Source of the DNA: Malacoraja senta
Taxonomy: Eukaryota
Assembly (NCBI GenBank): GCA_038087875.1
Contig: CM075995.1
Span: 2,296,001-2,360,000, forward strand
Length of the DNA: 64,000 nucleotides
Direction: 5' to 3'
In this document: positions 1,337 to 50,653 of the stretch, piece after piece
How the letters are laid out: each line of letters begins with the position of its first letter
How positions within the stretch are numbered: position 1 is the stretch's first letter
Notes under the pieces: model-generated
The model's database searches: none
The model's input: only the letters and a program-made list of their open reading frames with translations
What the model was told of the DNA's origin: nothing
Program-made: the position numbers and the translations under genes

Positions 1337-1370
1337 GGTGACGTTTCTGGTCGAGACCCTTCATCAGACT
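1337..1370 (-). ncRNA. Minimal type I hammerhead ribozyme motif (within PLE module 1243-1372)
   Basis: Reverse complement reads agtCTGATGAagggtctcgaccaGAAAcGTCacc: canonical CUGAUGA, a stem II hairpin, GAAA, palindromic ACGU and a GUC site. Confidence 0.65.
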
Positions 1371-1738
1371 CTCGTCGGAGAGAGGAGGAGAACTTCTTCA
1401 AACTCGGCATACCTTGAGGAGATTTCGCAGCGGAGCAGACATAATGTGTAAGAAGGAAAAGGGTCTTGCGTTTCTCCAGAGATGCTGCCTGACCCGCTGA
1501 GTTACTCCAGCATTTTGTGTCTATGCTCTATTATCCTACGACATATCTGATGGAATGAATGTACAATTACTGTACTAGTTTACTGACAGAACCTGAATTG
1601 GCTTCAACCTCATTCAATCCTTCACTCATCTATTATGGCCTTTAGAACATAGCTAGGTTTTCTCATTCACCATAACAGAATAAATTCCGGACAATATTTC
1701 TTGAAAGACCTGGCACCATGAGGAACTCAAAATATATT

Positions 1739-1960
1739 AGATAGACACAAAATGCTGGAGTAACTCAGCGGGACATGCAGCATCTCTGGAGAGAAGGAAT
1801 GGCTGACGTTTCGGGTCTAAACCCTTCTTCAGACTCTGAAGCAGGGTCTCGACCCCAACGGTCACCCATTCCTTCTCTCCAGAGATGCTGCATGTCCCGC
1901 TGAGTTACTTCAGCATTTTGTGTCTATCTTCGGTTTAGACCAGCATCTGCAGTTCCTTCC
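1739..1960. repeat. Palindrome of two back-to-back PLE hammerhead modules
   Basis: 1739-1834 is approximately the reverse complement of 1835-1929, centred on ttcagactctgaa. Confidence 0.85.
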
Positions 1961-7241: not shown

Positions 7242-8862
7242 CCTCGGACTATCCTTGATCGGACTTTGCTGGCTTTACGTTGCACTAAACATTATTTCCT
7301 TATCATGTATCTATACACTGTAAATGGCTCGATTGCAAACATGAAAGTACACAGCAAAACCTTTTCAATGTACCTCGGTACACGTGACAATAGAATGAAC
7401 TGTAAACAGTAAACGGCAAACTAAACTGTAAACTAAACTGTAAACTATACCGTCCGACATCGCCGTCGCACTGGGCCCACCGAACATCACAGCCGCACCC
7501 GGTCCTCCCAACATCGCCGCCGCACTGGGCCCATCCAGCATCGCCGCCGGACCAGGCCTACTCTACACGACCGCCGGACCGGGGCTCCCCGAACATGGCC
7601 GCCGCACCGCACCCTATTCACCCCATCGCCTCACCGGGCTGGTCGAACCGCGCCGCCCCACCGACCATCCACCTACCGGGAACTTCCACGCATCGCCCGT
7701 GGACCCCGACCATCGGGTCCGCCGACCCTCGCCACTGCAACGCCCCCCAGCCCCCCCGACTCCACTGCCCGAGGACTCCTACCGTCAGGTCCGCCGACCC
7801 TCGCCACTGCACCTCCCTCCAGCAGCCCGCAGCCGTCGCCTCACCTGCAGACTGGTCTCTGTACTGGGCTTGAAGCCTCCACGCTGCTCACTCCCACTCT
7901 CCTGGGTTTGACTCCACTGGGTCCTAGCGCTAGTCTGCCTAGATCGGATTACCTCCGTGTTAGTTCCACTGATTCTTCCCCATCCTTCTACAACTATGGG
8001 ACCCCTTCTCTTCCACACCCACACTACAGCCCTCTCACCCCCCCACCCCCTGAACACCCACCACCCCCCACCACCACATCGGCCTCGTCCCCATTCCACC
8101 CACCTGCCATCCTCCAGCCCCAACCCCCATCCCTGCCGGGTGTTCACCATCCCCCCGACCTCCCCCTCTCCGACATCGAACGGTCTGTCCTCAGCAGAGG
8201 TCTTACCTTTGTCCCCTCCGTCCCCACCTCAATGAGTTCCGTGCCCTCCATGACTTGGAACGCTTCTACCGTCGCCTCCGCCTCACAGCTCACTTCCATG
8301 GGAAGGAGTCCTCGCTCCCCACTGATGACCCCTTTTCCCGTCTCCCACGCACCCCCTCCTCATGGAACCCCCCTCGTAGCCTTCCGGCTTTAGAGCTCTT
8401 CATTCAAAACTGCCGCCGTGACATCAACCGCCTCAACTTCTCCACTCCCCTGTCTCACTCCAATCTCTCCCCCCCTGAACGCACTGCCATCGACTCACTC
8501 CGCAACAACCTAGATTGGGTTATCAAACCCGCCGACAAGGGAGGTGCCGTGGTAGTCTGGCGCGTCGATCTCTACAAAGCTGAGGCCACGCGCCAACTCT
8601 CGGACACCTCCTCCTACTTACCCCTGGACCATGACCTCACTGACGAGCACCAGGCCACCATCTCCAGCACCATCACCGACTTCATCCACTCCACGCCCTG
8701 CCCGACCGAGCCTCCAACCTCATCGTTCCCCAGCCCCGCACAGCCCGCTTTTACCTTCTCCCCAAAATCCACAAACTTGACTGTCCCGGTAGACCCATTG
8801 TCTCTGCCTGTTCGTGCCCCACCGAACTCATCTCCACCTACCTCGACTCCATCCTATCCCCC

Positions 8863-9714
8863 TTGGTTAAATCCCTCACCACCTATGTTCAAGACACCTC
8901 AGACACTCTCCGTCGTCTCCGCGCATTCCACTCTCTAGGCCCTCACCCCCTCATCTTCACCATGGACGTCCAGTCATTGTACACCTCCATCCCCCACCAG
9001 GATAGTCTCGAAGCCCTCCATTTTTTTCTCGACCGTAGAAGCAACCTATACCCGGCCACTGACACCCTCCTCCGCCTAGCGGAGCTGGTCCTTACACTTA
9101 ATAACTTTTCATTTGATTCCTCCCATTTCCTCCAAATACAAGGCGTAGCTATGGGCACACGCATGGGCCCCAGCTACGCATGCCTCTTTGTCGGGTACGT
9201 AGAACAATCCTTGTTCAATGCGTACCAGGGCCCCATCCCCGACCTCTACCTCCGCTACATCGATGATTGTTTTGGTGCCACATCCTGCACCCACACACAA
9301 CTGACTGACTTCATCCGCTTCACCACCAACTTCCATCCGGCACTCAAGTACACCTGGACCATTTCCGACACTTCCCTACCATTCCTTGACCTCACTATCT
9401 CCATCGAAGGTGATAGACTCCTTACCGACATCCACTACAAACCCACCGACTCCCATGGCTATCTGGACTACACTTCTTCCCACCCTGCTTCCTGTAAGGA
9501 CTCCATCCCCCACTCCCAATTCCCCTGTCTACGCCGCATCTGCTCCCAGGATGAGGCGTTCCACACCAGGGCATCTGAAATGTCCTCATTCTTCAGGGAA
9601 CGGGGGTTCCCCTCCTCCACCATAGATGAGGCTCGCACCAGGGTCTCTGCCATACCCCGCAACACTGCTCTCTCTCCCCATCCTCCCACTCACAACAAGG
9701 GCAGAGTCCCCTAG
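8863..9714 (+). pseudogene. PLE reverse transcriptase domain (ORF fragment)
   Basis: FTMDVQSLYTSI, QIQGVAMGTRMGPSYA, LRYIDD and LPFLDL; frameshifts on both sides. Confidence 0.9.
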
Positions 9715-9752
9715 TCCTCACCTTTCACCCCACCAGCCGTCACATACAACAA

Positions 9753-10319
9753 GTGATCCTCCGTCAGTTTCGCCACCTCCAACGTGACCCCACCACTCGC
9801 CACATCTTCCCATCTCCCCCCATGTCTGCCTTCTGCAAAGACCGCTCCCTCCGTAACTCCCTTGTCAATTCTTCCCTTCCCTCCCACACCACCCCCTCCC
9901 CTGGTACTTTCCCTTGCAACCGCAAGAGATGCAACACTTGTCCCTTCACCTCCCCCCTCGACTCCATTCAAGGACCCAAGCAGTCGTTCCAGGTGCGACA
10001 GAGGTTCACCTGCATCTCCTCCAACCTCATCTATTGCATCCGCTGCTCTAGATGCCAGCTGATCTACATCGGTGAGACCAAGCGGAGGCTTGGCGATCGT
10101 TTCGCCGAACACCTCCGGTCGGTCCGCAAAAACCAACTTGACCTCCCGGTGGCTCAGCACTTCAACTCCCCCTCCCATTCCATATCTGACCTCTCTCTCC
10201 TGGGTCTCCTCCATGGCCACAGCGAGCAACACCGTAAATTGGAGGAAATGCACCTCATATTCCGCTTGGGCAGTCTACATCCTGGGGGCTTGAACATTGA
10301 ATTCTCCCAATTCTGTTAG
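9753..10319 (+). pseudogene. PLE Cys linker plus GIY-YIG endonuclease (ORF fragment)
   Basis: CNRKRCNTC; NLIYCIRCSRC..IYIGETKRRLGDRFAEH; VAQHFN; terminal PGGLN. Confidence 0.9.
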
Positions 10320-10433
10320 CCCTTGCTGTCCCCTCCCCTTCATCAGCCCTCTGGTTGTCTCCTCCCCTCCCCCAGCCCTCAGGCTCCTCCTCCGCCTTTT
10401 TCCTTTTTTCCTTTCTTCTCCCCACCCCCTATC

Positions 10434-10467
10434 AGTCTGAAGAAGGGTTTCGGCCCGAAATGTTACC
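10434..10467 (+). ncRNA. Hammerhead ribozyme motif in the PLE 3' terminal region (slightly decayed)
   Basis: agtCTGAAGAa-gggt-ttcg-gccc-GAAAtGTTacc; stem II is capped by a UUCG loop. Confidence 0.6.
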
Positions 10468-10602
10468 TATTTCCTTCGCTCCATAGATGCTGCTGCACCC
10501 GCTGAGTTTCTCCAGCATTTTTGTGTACCTTCAATTTCCAGCATCTGCAGTTCCTTCTTAAACACTGTAAACTATACCTGTCCGAATGTGTTTTAAATGT
10601 TA

Positions 10603-11931: not shown

Positions 11932-14920
11932 CTAGACCACGTGCAGACACGTTGGGTCTGTTTCCCCAACACGCGTTTGCGGGGGGGGGGGGGCTGGTGG
12001 GAATCTGGCACCCACAAACACAAACACACACACTCATCACACCCCTTGATATTATCGAGAGAGGGGTGGGGAGGGGAGGAGAGAGGGATGGGGGAGGGGG
12101 AGAGAGGTGTGGGGAGGGGGGGAGGGTGGGGAGGAGGGAGATGGGGTAGGGGAGTGGGGAGAGAGGGAAGGGGGGTGGGGAGAGAGGGATGGGGTGGGGT
12201 AGGGGAGGGAGGGGGAAGAGCGTGGAGGGAGAGGGAAGGGAGGGGGGAGAGAGATGGGGAAGAGTGTGGAGGAAGGCGGAGAGGGGTAGGGGGGAGAGAG
12301 GAGGAAGAGTGGGGAGGGAGAGGGAAGGTAGGGGGGAGAGGTGTGGGGGAGGGAGATGTGGGGGGGTGGGGGATGGGGGGAGATAAGTGAAGAATGGGGA
12401 GGGAGGGGGAGAGGTGTAGGGGAGTGGTGGAAGTGGGAGAGAGGGAGGGGGAGAGGGTAGGGGAGTGGTGGAAGAGGGACAGAGGGTAGGGGGAAGGGGC
12501 GGGGGGAGAGAGGGAAGGGGGTGGGGAGAGAGGTGTGGGGAGGGGGGGAGGTATGGGGGAGGGAGATGAGGAGGAGATGGCGTAGGGGCGGGAAAAAGAA
12601 GAGTGTGGAGGGAGGGGGAGAGGGGTGGGGGAGAGAGGGAAAGAGTGGGGAGGGAGAGTGGGAGGGGGAGGGGGAGAGAAGTGGAAGAGTGGGGAGGAAG
12701 GGAGGGGGAGAGGGTAGGGAAGGGTGGGGAAGAGAGGGGATGGAGGGGGAAAGGAGGGGAGAGAGAGGGGTGGGGAGGGAGAGGGGTGGGATAAGGGGGT
12801 GAGGTGGAAGAGTGGGGAGGGAGGGGTAGGAGAGTGGTGGAAGAGGGACAGAGGGACAGAGGGGTAGGGGGAAGGGGGCGGGGGGAGAGAGGGAAGGGGG
12901 TGGGGAGAGAGGGATGGGGGTGGGAGGAGAGGGAGATGGAGGGGGAGTAGAGAGGGGTGGGGGAGGGGAGGCGAGAGTTGTGGGGGAGGGGGAATGGAGG
13001 CGAGGAGGAAGATGGGGTAGGGGGTAGAGGGGGAAGAGTGTGGATGGAAGGGAAGAGTGGGAGGGAGAAGGGGTTGGGGGAGAGAGGGAAGGGGTGGGAG
13101 AGGGAAGGTGGGAGAGGGAAGGGGGGTGGGGTAGAGAGGGATGGGGTGGGGGAGGAGAGGGTGAGGAGAGAGGGATGGGGGAGGGGGAGAGAGGGATGGG
13201 GGAGGGGGAGTGAGGTGTGGGGGAGGGGGGAGGGAGGCGAGGAGGGAGATGGGGTAGGGGAGAGAGGGGAAGAGTGTGGAGGGAGGGGGAAGAGTGGGGA
13301 GGGAGAAGGGTGAGGGGTAACGGGATGGGGGTGGGAGGGGTGGGGTGGGGGAGAGAGGGATGGGGGTGGGAGGAGGGGAGGAGAGGGCGAGGGAGATGGA
13401 GAGTGGGAGGAGAGAGGGGTGGGGGAGGGGAGGAGGGAGGGAGGGGGAGTGAGGGAGGAGAGGAGGAGATGGGGTAGGGGGGTGGGGGTGGGGGAAGGGG
13501 GTGGGGAGAGAGGGATAGGGGTGGGGTAGGGGAGGGAGGGGGAAGAGTGTGGAGGGAGAGGGAAGGGAGGGGGAGAGAGAGGGGTGAGGAGGGAGATGGG
13601 GAAGAGTGTGGAGGGAGGGAAGAGGGGTAGGGGGGAGAGAGGGGGAAGAGTGGGGAGGAAGAGAGAAGGGAGGGGGAGAGGGGTGGTGGAGGGAGATGGG
13701 GAGGGGTTGGGGAGATGTGGAAGAATGGGTAGGGAGGGGAGAGGTGTAGGGGTAGTGGTGGAAGTGGGAAAGAGGGAGGGGGAGAGGGGTAGGGGAGTGG
13801 TGGGACAGCGGGGTAGGGGGAAGGGGGCGGGGGAGAGAGGGAAGGGGTGGGGTAGAGAGGGAAGGGGTGGGGGAGAGAGGGAAGGGGGTGGGGAGAGAGG
13901 GTGGGGGAGAGAGGGGTGGGGGTGGGATGAGGAGGGGGAGAGGGGTGAGGAGAGGGAGATGGAGAGGGGGAGGAGAGGGGTGGGGGAGGCGAGGTGAGAG
14001 GGGAGGGGGAGAGAGGTGTGGGGGAGGGGGGAGGGAGGCGAGGAGGGAGATGGGTAGGGGGTAGAGGGGAAGACTGTGGATGGAGGGGAAGAGTGGGGAG
14101 GGGGATGGGGTGGGGGAGTGAGGGAAGGGGGTGGGGGAGGGAAGGGGGGTGGGGGGGAGAGGGAGGGGGTTGGGGAGGGAAGGGGGGAGAGGGAGGTGGT
14201 TGGGGAGAGTGGGATGGGGGTGGGAGGAGGATGGTGAGGAGAGGGAGAGGGTGAGGAGAGGGAGATGGAGAGGGGGAGGAGAGAGGGATGGGGAGGGGAG
14301 AGAGGGATGGGGAGGGAAGAGAGGTGTGGGGTAGCGGGGGAGTGATTGGGAAGGGAGGGGAGGAGGGAGATGGGGTAGGGAGGGAGGAGGAAGAGTGTGG
14401 AGGGAGGGGGAGAGGGGTGGGGGGAGAGAGGGGAAATAGTGGGGAGGGAGAGTGGAAGGGGGAGGGGGAGGGGACAGTCATCTGTTCCCATTCCCTATCA
14501 CCCCCAATCCTCTTTCTCTATTCCACACACGTGATGAGCCCTTCGACAGGCTTGGGGGGTGGGGGGAGGGCTGGGGCTGCTGCAAAGGCATATGTAAATG
14601 GATCCATTCCGATTGGACATCTGTGAGCATTGGGCATTGTGACATCACACGACGGAACCTTCACTAACATTCTATGGCTGAGATCTGTTATTTTTAACAT
14701 TTTGAAATTTTGGGGGTGGGGTGGAGAAGGATTTTATTAAAAACGAGTACATAAACACGACGAGATGTAATCAGGAGTGGCTACTCGTAAAGAAAGTGAA
14801 ACCTCTACCGAAATGGAAAATATCTCGGCGTTTCTGCGTGCGGTGAGGTATCAAAGGCTGGCTGGCACAAGTCAAGCAGACACACACACACACACACACA
14901 CACAGAGTTTTAAAGATAGA
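11932..14920 (-). mobile_element. Non-autonomous Helitron family 1, unit B (carries a 2.4-kb purine tract)
   Basis: 5' TCTATCTTTAAAACTC at 14920; 3' hairpin plus CTAG at 11932-11960. Confidence 0.8.
12058..14475 (+). repeat. G/A-rich low-complexity tract
   Basis: About 2.4 kb of mostly G and A with sparse T, in loosely repeated ggggagagaggg-type units. Confidence 0.95.
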
Positions 14921-39280: not shown

Positions 39281-39872
39281 TCAGGTAAGGGGAATGTTCA
39301 TCCCAGTCTGAAGAAAGGTCTTGACCCGAAACGTCACCCCTTCCTTCTCTCCAGAGATGCTGCCTGTCCCGCTGAGTGAGTCCAGCATTTTGTGTCTATG
39401 CCAGGAATAAGGGATGTGTTCAGGAGAGGCCTGGAGAAGTTGAGAATGTTCTTCTTCAATCAAAGAAGGTGGACAAGACATAAGAGAGTGATCAACAAAA
39501 GAAGAGCTCAAAATGAATAAATGAAAAGAAATTTCTGTTGGGTTAAAGAGTCAAGAATAGGAGGTCACTGGCCAAATATTCATTGGATTCTCTGCAGTTT
39601 AGTTTAGTTTAGAGATACAGTGCAGAAACAGACACTTCACCACCGAGTCCACACCAACCTGCAATCCCTGCACACTAACACTATCCAACACGCATACTAG
39701 GGACAATTTACAATTTTACCAAAGCCAATTAACCTTCAAACCTGTACGTCATTAGAGTGTAGGAGGGAACCTGAGCACCCGGAAAAAACCCACGCAGTCA
39801 GGGGGAGATCATACAAACTCTGTACAGACAGCACCAGTAGTCATCGTCGAACTGGGTCACTGGCGCTGTAAG

Positions 39873-43635: not shown

Positions 43636-44215
43636 AATAATGGTTTTCCAGTTATTTCTGCCAAACTTTCTGTAAAAGATAAACGTTTAAAGATCTTTGA
43701 AAAAGATCAAAAATGTGGAGAGCCTGGCCAGCAATCCTCTGTCCAGCCACCTACAATCTTTGTGTCTGCTCATGAGAGTGCAGGCGGACAGTGGGATGTA
43801 GAGGAACAGCTCCACATGGCTTAACTATTTTTATTTAACCAGAGGTATAAGCCTCGTCAAATAAAAATACCTTAAAAAGAGGAAAAACAAAACAAATAAG
43901 TGGTTACCCACACGTTGCAATAAAGCAGCAGTCGCATAATATTCAGGGAAGATGTGCCAGGAGAGTTGATTTTGACCGAATGATTGTATGATGTGGAGGA
44001 AGGAACTGCAGGTGCTGGTTTACGACAACGATAGACACAAAAAAGCTGGTGCAACTCAGCGGGTCAGGCGGCATGTGTAGGAAAGAACTGCAGATGCTGA
44101 TTTAAATCGAAGGTAGACACAAAATGCTGAGATAACTCAGTGGGACAGGCAGCATCTCTGGAGAGAAGGAATGGGTGACGTTTCGGGTCGAAAGTCTGAC
44201 TCAAGTTCGGATCGA

Positions 44216-44251
44216 GAGTCTGAAGAAGGGTCTCGACCCGAAACGTCACTC
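44216..44251 (+). ncRNA. Best-preserved minimal type I hammerhead ribozyme motif
   Basis: GAGT-CTGAAGA-A-GGGT(CTCG)ACCC-GAAA-C-GTC-ACTC: 4-bp stem I GAGU/ACUC, stem II, palindromic ACGU stem III; predicted cleavage after C44247. Confidence 0.72.
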
Positions 44252-44794
44252 ATTCCTTCTCTCCAGAGATGCTGCCCGTCTCGCTGAGTTACTCCAGCAT
44301 TTTGTGTCTATGGTTGTATGATGTGGCAACCAAGGTAATGACCTGTGGTTGTGTTTGATGCAAGCCCCTTTCCGCTACACTTCCCTTACAACAGCCATTT
44401 TCCCTTACAAGCAATACAACAGCCATTTTCATTTTGTAACCTTGCCTTTAGTGATTGTCTCATGAGTCTACCACCTTGCTAATGACTAACAATATTAATT
44501 TGCACCTTAATGTGACAAACCATATCAATGTGCGTCCAACAATGATTTGTTTTGGATGATTTCAGCGTGATGTGCAATGGGATTAGATTTGGATTGCTCG
44601 TGTGAAAGCTGGTGGAAGTGTAAACTTGTTTGGTTTTCTGTTTTCTGTTGGGACTTGCTCAGTCTCTTTCTCATTCCTCATTCCTGCAGGCTGGATGAAG
44701 CAATTCACCTCATTAGACCCCCACCTCAATCTACAAACCGTCCAATTACAATTACAATTAACACTTAGATAGACACAAAAAGCTGGAGTAACTC

Positions 44795-47924: not shown

Positions 47925-48114
47925 AAGATAGACATAAAATGCTGGAGTAACTCAGCGGGACAGGCAGCATCTCTGGTTAAAAGGAATGGGTACTGTTTAG
48001 GTCGAGACCTTTCTTCAGACTGAAGGAGGGTCTCAACCCGAAAGGTCGCCCATTCCTTCTCTCCAGAGATGCTGCCTGTCCGGCTGAGTTACTCCAGCAC
48101 ATTGTGTCTATCTT
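47925..48114. repeat. Palindrome of two back-to-back hammerhead modules
   Basis: Centred on cttcagactgaag at ~48019. Confidence 0.8.
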
Positions 48115-50653
48115 TGGTATAAACGAGCATCTGCAGTTCCTTCCTTCCTTCACATGGGAGGATTTGAATCTGGTTAGCAAGTCCAAAAGTGGATAGGATT
48201 GTTGACAAATCTCAAGATTGCAGCTGGTTGTGGAGGCATCATGCAGTCAACACTTAAAGTATTAAAACTTAATCGAACGTTTACCACAAATTAAGCTGGC
48301 CAAATTATTTAATATGTCGTCATCACGGATTGCTGCAGTAAACAATAGAAACACCAACAGACATTTCTGTCAATAATTTTGATAAAATGACTTCTTATAT
48401 CTTTTTTTTTTAATATTTTAATCTGATAATCTTTGCATCCCTGACCAGAATAGTCAACAAATCTTAAGATAGACACATTCCGAAGAAGGGCCTCCACACA
48501 AAAGTCACCCATTCTTTCATTCCAGAGACGTTGCCTGTCCCGCTGATTTACTCCAGCATTTTAGGCAATAAACAATAGACAATAGACAATAGGTGCAGGA
48601 GTAGGCTATTCGGCCCTTCGAGCCAGCACCGCCATTCCATATGATCACGGCTGATCATCCACAATCAGTACCCCATTCCTGCCTTCTCGCCATATCTCCT
48701 GACTCCGGTATCTTTAAGAGCTCTATCTAACTCTCTCTTGAAAGCATCCAGAGAATTGGCCTCCACAGATTCACAACTCTCTGGGTGAAAAAGTTTTTCC
48801 TCATCTCCGTTCTAAATGGCCTCCCCCTAATTCTTAAACAGTGGCCGCTGGTTCTGGATTCCCCCAACATCGGGAACATGTTTCCTGCCTCTAGCGTGTC
48901 TTTGTGTCTATCTTCGGTGCTAACCGGTATCTGCAGTTCCTTCTTACACAGCAACCAGTTTTCCTTCCTACACATGAGTCAACAATCTGTTTTATTAGAG
49001 AGGGGTGGGCGCCTGGAACATGCTGTCAATGGTGGAAGCAGATACAATCGCATTTCAAAAGCTTTTGGATAGGCACGTGGACGTGCAGGGAGTGGAGGGA
49101 TATGTATCACGTGCAGTCAAATGAGATTAATTTAACTTGGCATCATGTTTCCATGTGCACATTGTGGGCCGAAGGACATTTTACTGAGCAGGACTGTTCT
49201 ATGTGAGTCTCATAATAATAAAAAGTACAGGAGCAAGTTTACACTTCCACCAGCTTTCACACGAGCAACTCAAATCTAATCCCATTGCACATCACGCTGA
49301 AATCATCCAAAACAAATCATTGTTGGACGCACATTGATATGGTTTGTCACATTAAGGTGCAAATTAATATTTTTAGTCATTAGCAAGGTGGTAGACTCAT
49401 GAGACAATCACTAAAGTCATGGTTACAAAATTAAATTGGCTGTTGTACTGCTTATATACACGAGATACAACCTGGAGCATTGGAGTATTTGATGATAGAC
49501 ACAAAATGCTGAAGTAACTCAGCGGGACAGGCAGCATCTCTGGAGAGAAGGAATGGGTGACGTTTTGGGTCGAGACCCTTCTTCAAACTGAAGGAGGGTC
49601 CCGAGCCAAAATGTCACCCATTCCTTCGTTTTGGGTCGAGACCCTTCTTCAAGCTGAAGGAGGGTCTCGAGCCGAAATGTCACCCTTTCCTTCTCTCCAG
49701 AGATGCTGCCTGTCTGGCTGAGTTACTCCAGCATTTTGTGTCTATCCTTCTTACACAGCAACTCGTTTTCCTTCCCACACACTAGCCAACAAATCTGTTT
49801 TGCTAGAGAGAGGTGGGTGCCTGGAACATGCTGCCAATGGTGGAGGCAGATTCAAAAGCTTTTAAAATGCTTTTGGATAGGCACATGGACATGCAGGGGG
49901 GAGTGGATGGATAAGAATCACATGCAGGCAGATGAGATTAGTTTAACCTGGCTTCATGTTTTCGCATGGACATAGTCGAATAGTGACCGGCTTGGAAAGA
50001 GTGGATGTGGTGAGGATGTTTCCACTTGTGAACTGTACACTGCAAGGGCCAGAAAGCGAGCGGGCAAGTTTATCTCTGACCCCTCTCACCCTGGCCACAA
50101 ACTCTTTGAATCACTTCCCTCTGGAAGGCGACTCCAGACTGTCAAAGCTGCCACAGCCAGACATAAAAACAGTTTTTATCCACGAGTAGTTGCTCTACTC
50201 ATCAGCCAAAAGTCTGTAGCCTCCCTTTGATCTGGTATCATGCTTGATCAATGGTGTTTTATCATTAATGTTTTATTATTATTAAGTTTTCTGAGTCATT
50301 CGTAACAGTCACTATATGTCATGTTGTTACTTGTGGGCGGAGCACCAAGGCAAATTCCTTGTATGTGAATACTTGGCCAATAAGCTTACTTACTTACTTA
50401 CTTACTTACTTTGTGGAAGAGTCTAGGACTAGACTCAGAATTGGCAGGAGATGAGAAGGAATGTCAGAGGGTGGTGAATCTGTGGAATTCTTTGTCACAG
50501 AAGGCTGTGGAGGCCGTCAATGGATATTTTAAAGGCAGAGATAGACAGGTTCTTGATTAGTACGGGTGATAGGGGAAATGGGGAGAAGGCAGGAGAATGG
50601 GTTTAGGAGGAAAAGATAGATCAGCCATGATTGCATGGGGGAGTAGACCACCT

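What the first reader, a model, noticed from the sequence alone, without database searches (positions are those of the whole stretch)
44216..44251. A copy with an intact hammerhead fold, suitable for direct testing
GAGU/ACUC stem I, CUGAAGA, an extra A before stem II, GGGU-CUCG-ACCC, GAAA, and a self-complementary ACGU in place of a stable stem III, then the GUC site. The copy at 1337-1370 (minus) has the canonical CUGAUGA, so position 7 varies as expected in a real hammerhead core. The stem II loop also varies (CUCG versus UUCG) while pairing is kept.
Basis: partly seen in the sequence, partly recalled or inferred. Interest (0 to 1): 0.7.

Follow-up and report, generated by a model that had tools for sequence, protein, structure and literature searches.

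The report
Penelope retroelement minimal hammerhead remnant
The motif is a real "minimal hammerhead" ribozyme sequence from the end repeat of a Penelope-like jumping gene, a kind already described and present here in over ten thousand identical copies, and this particular copy is predicted to be locked in a long hairpin and so is likely inactive where it sits.

Summary
The letters are as described. 44216-44251 is a minimal type-I hammerhead (min-HHR): CUGAAGA, extra A, 4-bp stem II, GAAA, ACGU palindrome, GUC. It is the pseudo-LTR (pLTR) motif of a Penelope-like element (PLE). The exact 29-mer occurs 14,857 times in the genome. The motif follows the RT/GIY-YIG frame in 35 of 35 PLE loci examined and flanks full-length copies. 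This kind is published (Cervera 2014).

The copy is not special. It is one arm of a head-to-head PLE insertion with a 13-bp target duplication and folds into a -157 kcal/mol hairpin. Two of its four stem-I pairs are accidents: a junction-derived G, and a U found in 168 of 8,223 copies. The proposed 44200-44270 construct has a predicted hammerhead-fold probability of 3.5e-7, against 0.39 for 44216-44251 alone. Position 7 does vary 1.7-2 times more than neighbouring As, modest family-level support. Ordinary; low interest.

The parts
44216..44251 (+). Minimal type-I hammerhead motif (stem I 44216-19/44248-51; core 44220-26; extra A 44227; stem II 44228-39; GAAA 44240-43; ACGT palindrome 44243-46; predicted cut 44247/44248)
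   Evidence: Sequence; fold of the isolated motif; matches the published min-HHR consensus
44217..44310 (+). Sense arm: solo PLE pLTR fragment from just 5' of the core to the first 3' end site, without tail
   Evidence: Same motif and downstream block follow the PLE frame in 35 of 35 loci; 235 of 587 copies end at this site, 189 carry the tail, 163 unscored
44113..44191 (-). Inverted, 5'-truncated pLTR arm (begins inside loop II, lacks CUGAAGA); pairs with 44233-44310; keeps the family C at stem-I position 1.3
   Evidence: Alignment 72 of 78; hairpin -156.9 kcal/mol, z -19.7, 0 of 200 shuffles
44073..44112 (-). PLE 'tail' (about 40 nt), present on the inverted arm only
   Evidence: Sequence; the same stretch lies between pLTR and ATG in full-length copies; tail described in PMC8557442 and PMC11167929
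44206..44217 (-).
43997..44072 (-). Further antisense pLTR-plus-tail fragment inside the same insertion
43984..43996 (+). Left copy of a 13-bp direct repeat (TTGTATGATGTGG), likely target-site duplication
   Evidence: Sequence
44314..44326 (+). Right copy of the 13-bp direct repeat; brackets the composite insertion of about 313 bp
   Evidence: Sequence
8054..10560 (+). 5'-truncated, frameshifted autonomous-type PLE of the same superfamily: RT, CxxC linker, GIY-YIG, then the same hammerhead motif (10437-10464, UUCG subfamily) and tail
   Evidence: Pfam RVT_1 E 9e-7 and GIY-YIG E 1e-4; 95-97% identical relatives genome-wide
1337..1370 (-).

Best explanation
This is a copy of the minimal hammerhead motif carried in the end repeat (pLTR) of a Penelope-like retroelement, sitting in an inverted-repeat insertion where it is predicted to be buried in a long hairpin and is likely inactive. 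Shown: the motif lies about 116 nt after the stop codon of an RT plus GIY-YIG frame and again upstream of the ATG in tandem full-length copies; most genomic copies are short solo pLTR pieces that decay at catalytic positions. Inferred: in the source elements the motif likely works as other PLE min-HHRs do, with two motifs pairing their ACGU palindromes to build a shared helix III, probably with help from the PLE protein, and cutting after GUC/GUU at a low rate. Inferred for this locus: one insertion event (13-bp target duplication) laid down an inverted, truncated arm with the tail plus a sense arm; the junction and one later C-to-T change happened to lengthen stem I from 2 to 4 bp. A plus-strand transcript would make the antisense arm first and trap the motif; a minus-strand transcript carries only a truncated core.
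For: Motif 3' of the frame in 35 of 35 PLE loci and on both sides of it in 6 of 16 loci chosen for long frames. 1,238-aa protein with DKG, YIDD, C-x4-C-x2-C linker and GIY-YIG. All architecture features of the published min-HHR consensus are present. 14,857 exact copies. Neutral-looking decay: G12 changed in 57 of 252 copies (53 to A, CpG), core plus stem II intact in only 63 of 252, 113 of 1,008 stem-II cells broken against 5 compensatory. Hairpin -156.9 kcal/mol; P(hammerhead fold) 5e-26 in native context. U at 1.3 in 168 of 8,223 copies; the inverted arm keeps C. Inverted truncated copy, one-sided tail and junction palindromes are documented PLE hallmarks. Signs of constraint in source elements: N7 excess; subfamily changes fall on tolerant sites only: loop C/U, U-A to U-G, C17/U17, A1.1/G1.1.
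Against: No cleavage data exist for this family. Native stem I is only 2 bp, and even the young element's pLTR is predicted not to fold as a monomer (P 2.7e-7). 5' ends of genomic copies do not pile up at the cut site (3 of 587 at 1.1, 5 at 17), so there is no genomic trace of cleavage. The sequence downstream of the core is also conserved between subfamilies, so conservation need not be for catalysis. Rfam finds no hammerhead even at E up to 10. Fold probabilities are nearest-neighbour predictions that ignore tertiary contacts, Mg, proteins and co-transcriptional folding.
Confidence: 0.84

Rival explanations
1. The motif is hammerhead-derived but catalytically dead throughout this family and is kept as a DNA or RNA signal (promoter element, or binding site for the PLE protein).
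For: 2-bp native stem I; monomer fold disfavoured in the young element; no 5'-end pile-up at the cut site; conserved block extends past the core; in the anole PLE, catalytic mutants did not affect insertion in vitro and no RNA-seq reads ended at the cut site (PMC11167929).
Against: All catalytic residues are kept in young full-length copies; subfamily differences are all structure-neutral; N7 varies 1.7-2 times more than neighbouring As; 2-bp helix I occurs in published min-HHRs; the anole motif does cleave with protein.
Confidence: 0.11
2. This copy is an active ribozyme in place: the accidental 4-bp stem I makes it better than its source and it cuts a transcript running through 44247/44248.
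For: Perfect core and stem II; 4-bp stem I is rare (10 of 252 have 4 bp or more); the isolated 36-mer folds correctly (P 0.39) and a double-hammerhead structure scores -13.1 kcal/mol.
Against: Upstream antisense arm and junction fragment are transcribed first; P falls to 3.5e-7 from 44200 and 1e-21 from 44170. No complete same-strand partner nearby (nearest plus-strand copies at 39308 and 48020, both with substitutions). A competing stem-II homodimer scores -24.9 kcal/mol. No host exon recognised in the window (0 of 53 unique-sequence frames hit Pfam).
Confidence: 0.03
3. If the locus matters at all it does so as a long hairpin, a source of double-stranded RNA or small RNAs against the PLE family, not as a ribozyme.
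For: 78-bp near-perfect stem; weak Rfam matches to miRNA-precursor models (MIR2118 46 bits against gathering 85); 53 of 252 copies sit in such inverted pairs.
Against: The Rfam matches are far below threshold and reflect generic hairpin shape; nothing marks this hairpin out from the many others; transcription of the locus is not shown.
Confidence: 0.05

Closest known systems
Minimal hammerheads (min-HHR) in pLTRs of metazoan Penelope-like elements (Cervera and De la Pena 2014, PMC4209133)
   Same: Type-I layout, CUGANGA plus one extra base, G10.1-C11.1, GAAA-CG-UH with no helix III, short helix I, position in the pLTR, mostly solo copies, some pairs on opposite strands. The Acropora Neptune entry in their Fig. 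S3 has the same 4-bp stem II, tetraloop and C-G-U-C end.
   Different: Far higher copy number (14,857 exact copies against about 4,000 and 9,000 motifs reported for coelacanth and Xenopus); one family dominates; native helix I is at the short end (2 bp). I saw no cartilaginous fish among the names in the Fig. S3 text.
Poseidon element of Anolis carolinensis, PAc (Frangieh et al. 2024, PMC11167929)
   Same: pLTR hammerhead, 30-40-nt tail with two 3' end sites, no sign that cleaved RNA is the insertion template.
   Different: PAc's frame starts within stem II; here the ATG lies about 160 nt downstream of C3, after the tail. This element has a zinc-finger linker, which Penelope/Poseidon lacks.
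Neptune-clade EN+ PLEs (Craig et al. 2021, PMC8557442)
   Same: C-terminal GIY-YIG, CX2-5CxxC linker, DKG motif, partial tandems, inverted truncated copy, one-sided tail.
   Different: Clade not tested by a tree; Nematis also has a linker finger. The frame (1,238 aa) has a long proline-rich repeat region before the RT.
Non-LTR retrozymes of animals (PMC7229834 listing; bioRxiv 10.64898/2026.07.22.740005)
   Same: Derived from PLE pLTRs, type-I hammerhead.
   Different: Retrozymes are head-to-tail arrays with a complete hammerhead in each unit; this copy is a head-to-head pair with one complete motif.

Membership tests
PLE minimal hammerhead (min-HHR) | Core CUGANGA ... GAAA ... UH | tested here: met
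   44220-26, 44240-43, 44246-47 against the consensus
PLE minimal hammerhead (min-HHR) | Extra base between 9 and 10.1; G10.1-C11.1 pair | tested here: met
   A44227; G44228-C44239; features listed
PLE minimal hammerhead (min-HHR) | No helix III; palindromic 15.2-16.2 | tested here: met
   ACGT 44243-46
PLE minimal hammerhead (min-HHR) | Short helix I (2-6 bp in the published alignment) | tested here: met
   4 bp in this copy by accident, 2 bp in 139 of 252 family copies; 2-bp examples
PLE minimal hammerhead (min-HHR) | Lies in the pLTR of a PLE | tested here: met
   35 of 35 PLE loci
PLE minimal hammerhead (min-HHR) | Compensatory changes in the stems | tested here: inconclusive
   5 compensatory against 113 broken of 1,008 stem-II cells; subfamily changes are wobbles
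PLE minimal hammerhead (min-HHR) | Self-cleavage as dimer or with protein | not testable with these tools
   Needs an assay; only assembled contigs were available
EN+ Penelope-like element | Single frame with RT and C-terminal GIY-YIG | tested here: met
   (Pfam scores at or just under the curated cut-offs)
EN+ Penelope-like element | Partial tandem pLTRs, inverted truncated copy, 30-40-nt tail at one end | tested here: met
   definitions
Neptune clade | CX2-5CxxC linker between RT and EN | tested here: met
   C-x4-C-x2-C in P0001
Neptune clade | Placement in an RT tree with reference PLEs | not tested
   No reference PLE proteins were fetched
Canonical type-I hammerhead (Rfam models) | 6-bp helix I with tertiary bulge, 1-2-bp helix III with loop; Rfam score | tested here: not met
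   No hammerhead family at gathering in the window or at E up to 10 in 43900-44500
Non-LTR retrozyme | Head-to-tail repeats each with a complete hammerhead | tested here: not met
   Head-to-head pair, one complete motif

The most novel reading that the evidence does not exclude
The family records its own RNA template. 5' ends of copies pile up 0-3 nt upstream of the core (133 of 587 in four positions, against 8.7 per position inside the core) at an initiator-like TCAGT that is shared by subfamilies with unrelated upstream tracts, and not at the cut site. The transcript would then start three bases before the hammerhead, be copied uncut from the tail back to its 5' end, and sometimes fold back there (16 of 53 inverted pairs are centred on TCAG-N-CTGA). 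A derivative with 15,536 junctions of a 66-nt unit that begins at GAAACGUC would give one complete hammerhead a row of substrate half-sites in cis, releasing 66-nt RNAs that could circularise: a half-hammerhead retrozyme.
Probability: 0.07. Interest if true: 0.55.

Novelty: new member of a known kind. Interest (0 to 1): 0.14.

Why it matters
As given, little: PLE min-HHRs are described and this is one of tens of thousands of copies. What the hammerhead does for PLEs is still open (the 2021 and 2024 papers say so), and this genome holds young full-length elements with identical motifs in both pLTRs, which are better test material than this copy. The size of the family also lets one read template ends from the genome; here they argue that inserted copies come from uncleaved RNA.

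Tried and rejected
Rfam, whole window at gathering: 0 matches; 43900-44500 at E up to 10: 8 matches, none a hammerhead, the miRNA ones rejected as generic hairpins. Expression: no RNA holder listed; runs guessed as RNA come from other organisms and exist only as contigs, so say nothing on transcription, strand or RNA ends; no GT..AG joint was among the joints shown (15 of 51, 15 of 1,540). Splice-acceptor origin of the 5' pile-up (pyrimidine tract plus CAG precedes the core, as an intron end does in Drosophila Penelope): no shared upstream exon among 127 copies with non-native upstream; 36 of them had other PLE pieces there; not supported, not excluded. Cap-derived G at the boundary: 12 of 22 at -3, too few to judge. 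Other hammerhead families for cross-family covariation: none in 1.26 Mb. Cis helix III in the 66-nt arrays: predicted P 1e-4, 1e-6 and 7.5e-10 in the three arrays folded, not better than the monomer fold in the two compared. Host gene: 0 of 53 unique-sequence frames hit Pfam (53 of 59 listed were sent); short exons would be missed. Lunse et al. on dimer cleavage is not held; seen only as cited in a review. Literature searches for this repeat in cartilaginous fish listed nothing on it; subscription papers and Repbase were not searchable, so this is no claim of absence. Earlier-findings look-ups by place and sequence were empty.

Full report
Observation. Folded alone it gives stems I and II (-7.4 kcal/mol; probability of the hammerhead secondary structure 0.39). 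It is not chance: the 29-mer from C3 to position 1.1 occurs 14,857 times in the 1.94-Gb genome, reversed control 0; 24 copies within six edits lie in the window; a generic min-HHR descriptor found 59 hits in 1.26 Mb, all of this family, and none in reversed sequence. Rfam has no matching hammerhead model. The organism is not given; the repeat content looks like a cartilaginous fish to me, which is recall, not a tool result.

What it belongs to. The window holds a truncated, frameshifted retroelement at about 8054-10560 with RT (RVT_1, E 9e-7) and GIY-YIG (E 1e-4) domains, followed by the same motif at 10437. A search with its RT gave 37,464 candidates, 114 scored, 95-97% identical apart from itself. 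In 35 loci taken from those hits (19 returned by the search, 16 chosen for long open frames) the motif followed the frame in 35 of 35, about 116 nt after the stop, and in 6 of the 16 it also lay upstream of the ATG. The intact frame is 1,238 aa with DKG, YIDD, a C-x4-C-x2-C linker and GIY-YIG: a Penelope-like element with C-terminal endonuclease, Neptune-like by its linker, clade not tested by a tree. Cervera and De la Pena (PMC4209133; I read parts 1-2 of 4 of the text and parts 1-2 of 3 of the supplement) describe exactly this motif in PLE pLTRs, with an extra base after A9, G10.1-C11.1 and a palindrome at 15.2-16.2. All are met.

Anatomy of this copy. A 13-bp direct repeat at 43984-43996 and 44314-44326 brackets a composite of about 313 bp: an antisense pLTR-plus-tail fragment, an antisense tail (44073-44112) and arm (44113-44191) that begins inside loop II, a short spacer, a second antisense fragment (44206-44217), and the sense arm to 44310 without tail. 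Inverted truncated copies, a one-sided 30-40-nt tail and junction palindromes are documented PLE traits (passages of PMC8557442; parts 1-2 of 4 of PMC11167929; passages of PMC3846280). 53 of 252 copies that reach C3 have such an inverted partner. The region folds as one hairpin, -156.9 kcal/mol, z -19.7. These are secondary-structure predictions only.

Stem I is accidental. Of 671 copies found in 1.26 Mb by the sequence downstream of the motif, 587 could be scored (84 dropped for a late anchor start, a locus edge or N) and 252 reached C3. Stem I has 2 bp in 139, 3 bp in 17, 4-5 bp in 10 and 0-1 bp in 86. The native 5' strand is CAGU against ACC(C/U). Here G44216 comes from the junction fragment, and T44250 is a variant seen in 168 of 8,223 exact-core copies; the inverted arm has the usual C.

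Variation. The copies decay without regard to catalysis: G12 is changed in 57 of 252 (CpG), core plus stem II is intact in 63 of 252, and stem II shows 113 broken against 5 compensatory cells of 1,008. Rates at the 5'-most positions are biased low by the way copies were extended. The UUCG loop is a real subfamily trait that travels with A11.4G, C17U and often A1.1G (28 of 252), all tolerated changes. Six upstream-defined groups (68 of 111 native-like copies) share CAGT and nearly the same core although their upstream tracts are mostly unrelated; one group of four has G12A; the set included the 30 loci picked for an exact core, which biases it towards identity, and the downstream block is conserved too.

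How it likely works. Shown: position in the pLTR, intact core in young elements. Inferred from published relatives: two motifs pair ACGU with ACGU to form a shared helix III and cut after position 17 slowly; the schistosome monomer was inactive and dimers weak, a review says the same of the class (passages of PMC6765202), and the anole motif cut only with PLE protein while its mutants still inserted. In Xenopus only one of nine retrozyme dimers cleaved (parts 1-3 of 5 of bioRxiv 10.64898/2026.07.22.740005; its supplements were not seen). Against activity: even the young pLTR is predicted to pair its pyrimidine tract with GAAGAAGG (P 2.7e-7), and 5' ends do not gather at the cut site (3 of 587 at 1.1). 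For this locus both strands are unfavourable, no host exon was recognised, and no usable RNA data exist. One DNA-type run covers the left flank and junction without differences, but it may be the source sample.

Side results. 5' ends gather at -3 to C3: 133 of 587 over four positions, 121 of them without native-like upstream, against 165 over the 19 positions U4-C11.1. Loose ends at the same place appear in contigs of other organisms. 16 of 53 inverted pairs are centred on TCAG-N-CTGA. TCAGT resembles an initiator (consensus recalled; an Inr-like pentamer in a rotifer pLTR is noted; the Drosophila start lies 46 bp before an intron, passages of PMC2377424). A start site here is a hypothesis. 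A 66-nt tandem derivative beginning at G12 has 15,536 exact junctions; 13 of 30 arrays begin with a recognisable full core; folding gave no support for a cis helix III, and template jumping at the stem-II hairpin is the simpler origin.

Earlier findings. Three notes from other genomes reach the same filing; they are unchecked AI notes, were read after my reading was fixed, and are not counted as support.

Verdict. Real motif, known kind, ordinary and probably inert copy; the proposed test construct and refutation criterion should be replaced. Interest 0.14.

Noticed in passing
G000, e.g. L029, L070, L139, L187-L198: 66-nt head-to-tail arrays (1-6 extra units) that restart at GAAACGTC, i.e. only the 3' half of the hammerhead; 15,536 exact junctions genome-wide.
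   Followed up: partly
family-wide; L173:7259-7265: 5' ends of copies pile up just upstream of C3 at TCAG-T-CTGA, which is at once a micro-palindrome, initiator-like and acceptor-like; 16 of 53 inverted pairs are centred there.
   Followed up: partly
L171-L177, L180: Young full-length tandem PLEs with a 1,238-aa open frame and identical hammerheads in both pLTRs; the family looks recently active.
   Followed up: partly
window 1370-1440 (-): The 5' UTR and first codons of the PLE frame are joined directly to a pLTR hammerhead; 1 such case among 127 copies with non-native upstream.
   Followed up: partly
L173:7225-7330: In the young pLTR the upstream pyrimidine tract is predicted to pair with GAAGAAGG, which would switch the motif off in read-through RNA but not in RNA starting at TCAGT.
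   Followed up: no
window 1805-1863, 47991-48047, 49559-49681: Other head-to-head pLTR palindromes, one with a 66-nt duplication at the centre.
   Followed up: no
whole window: About 72% of the window matches repeats found in other fetched loci; other LINE-type RT fragments, SINE-like families and a 2.4-kb G/A-rich low-complexity tract at 12060-14470.
   Followed up: no
L023 and L024: A short frame that looks like a phospholipase C exon (recognised from memory, not tested) lies in these overlapping loci.
   Followed up: no
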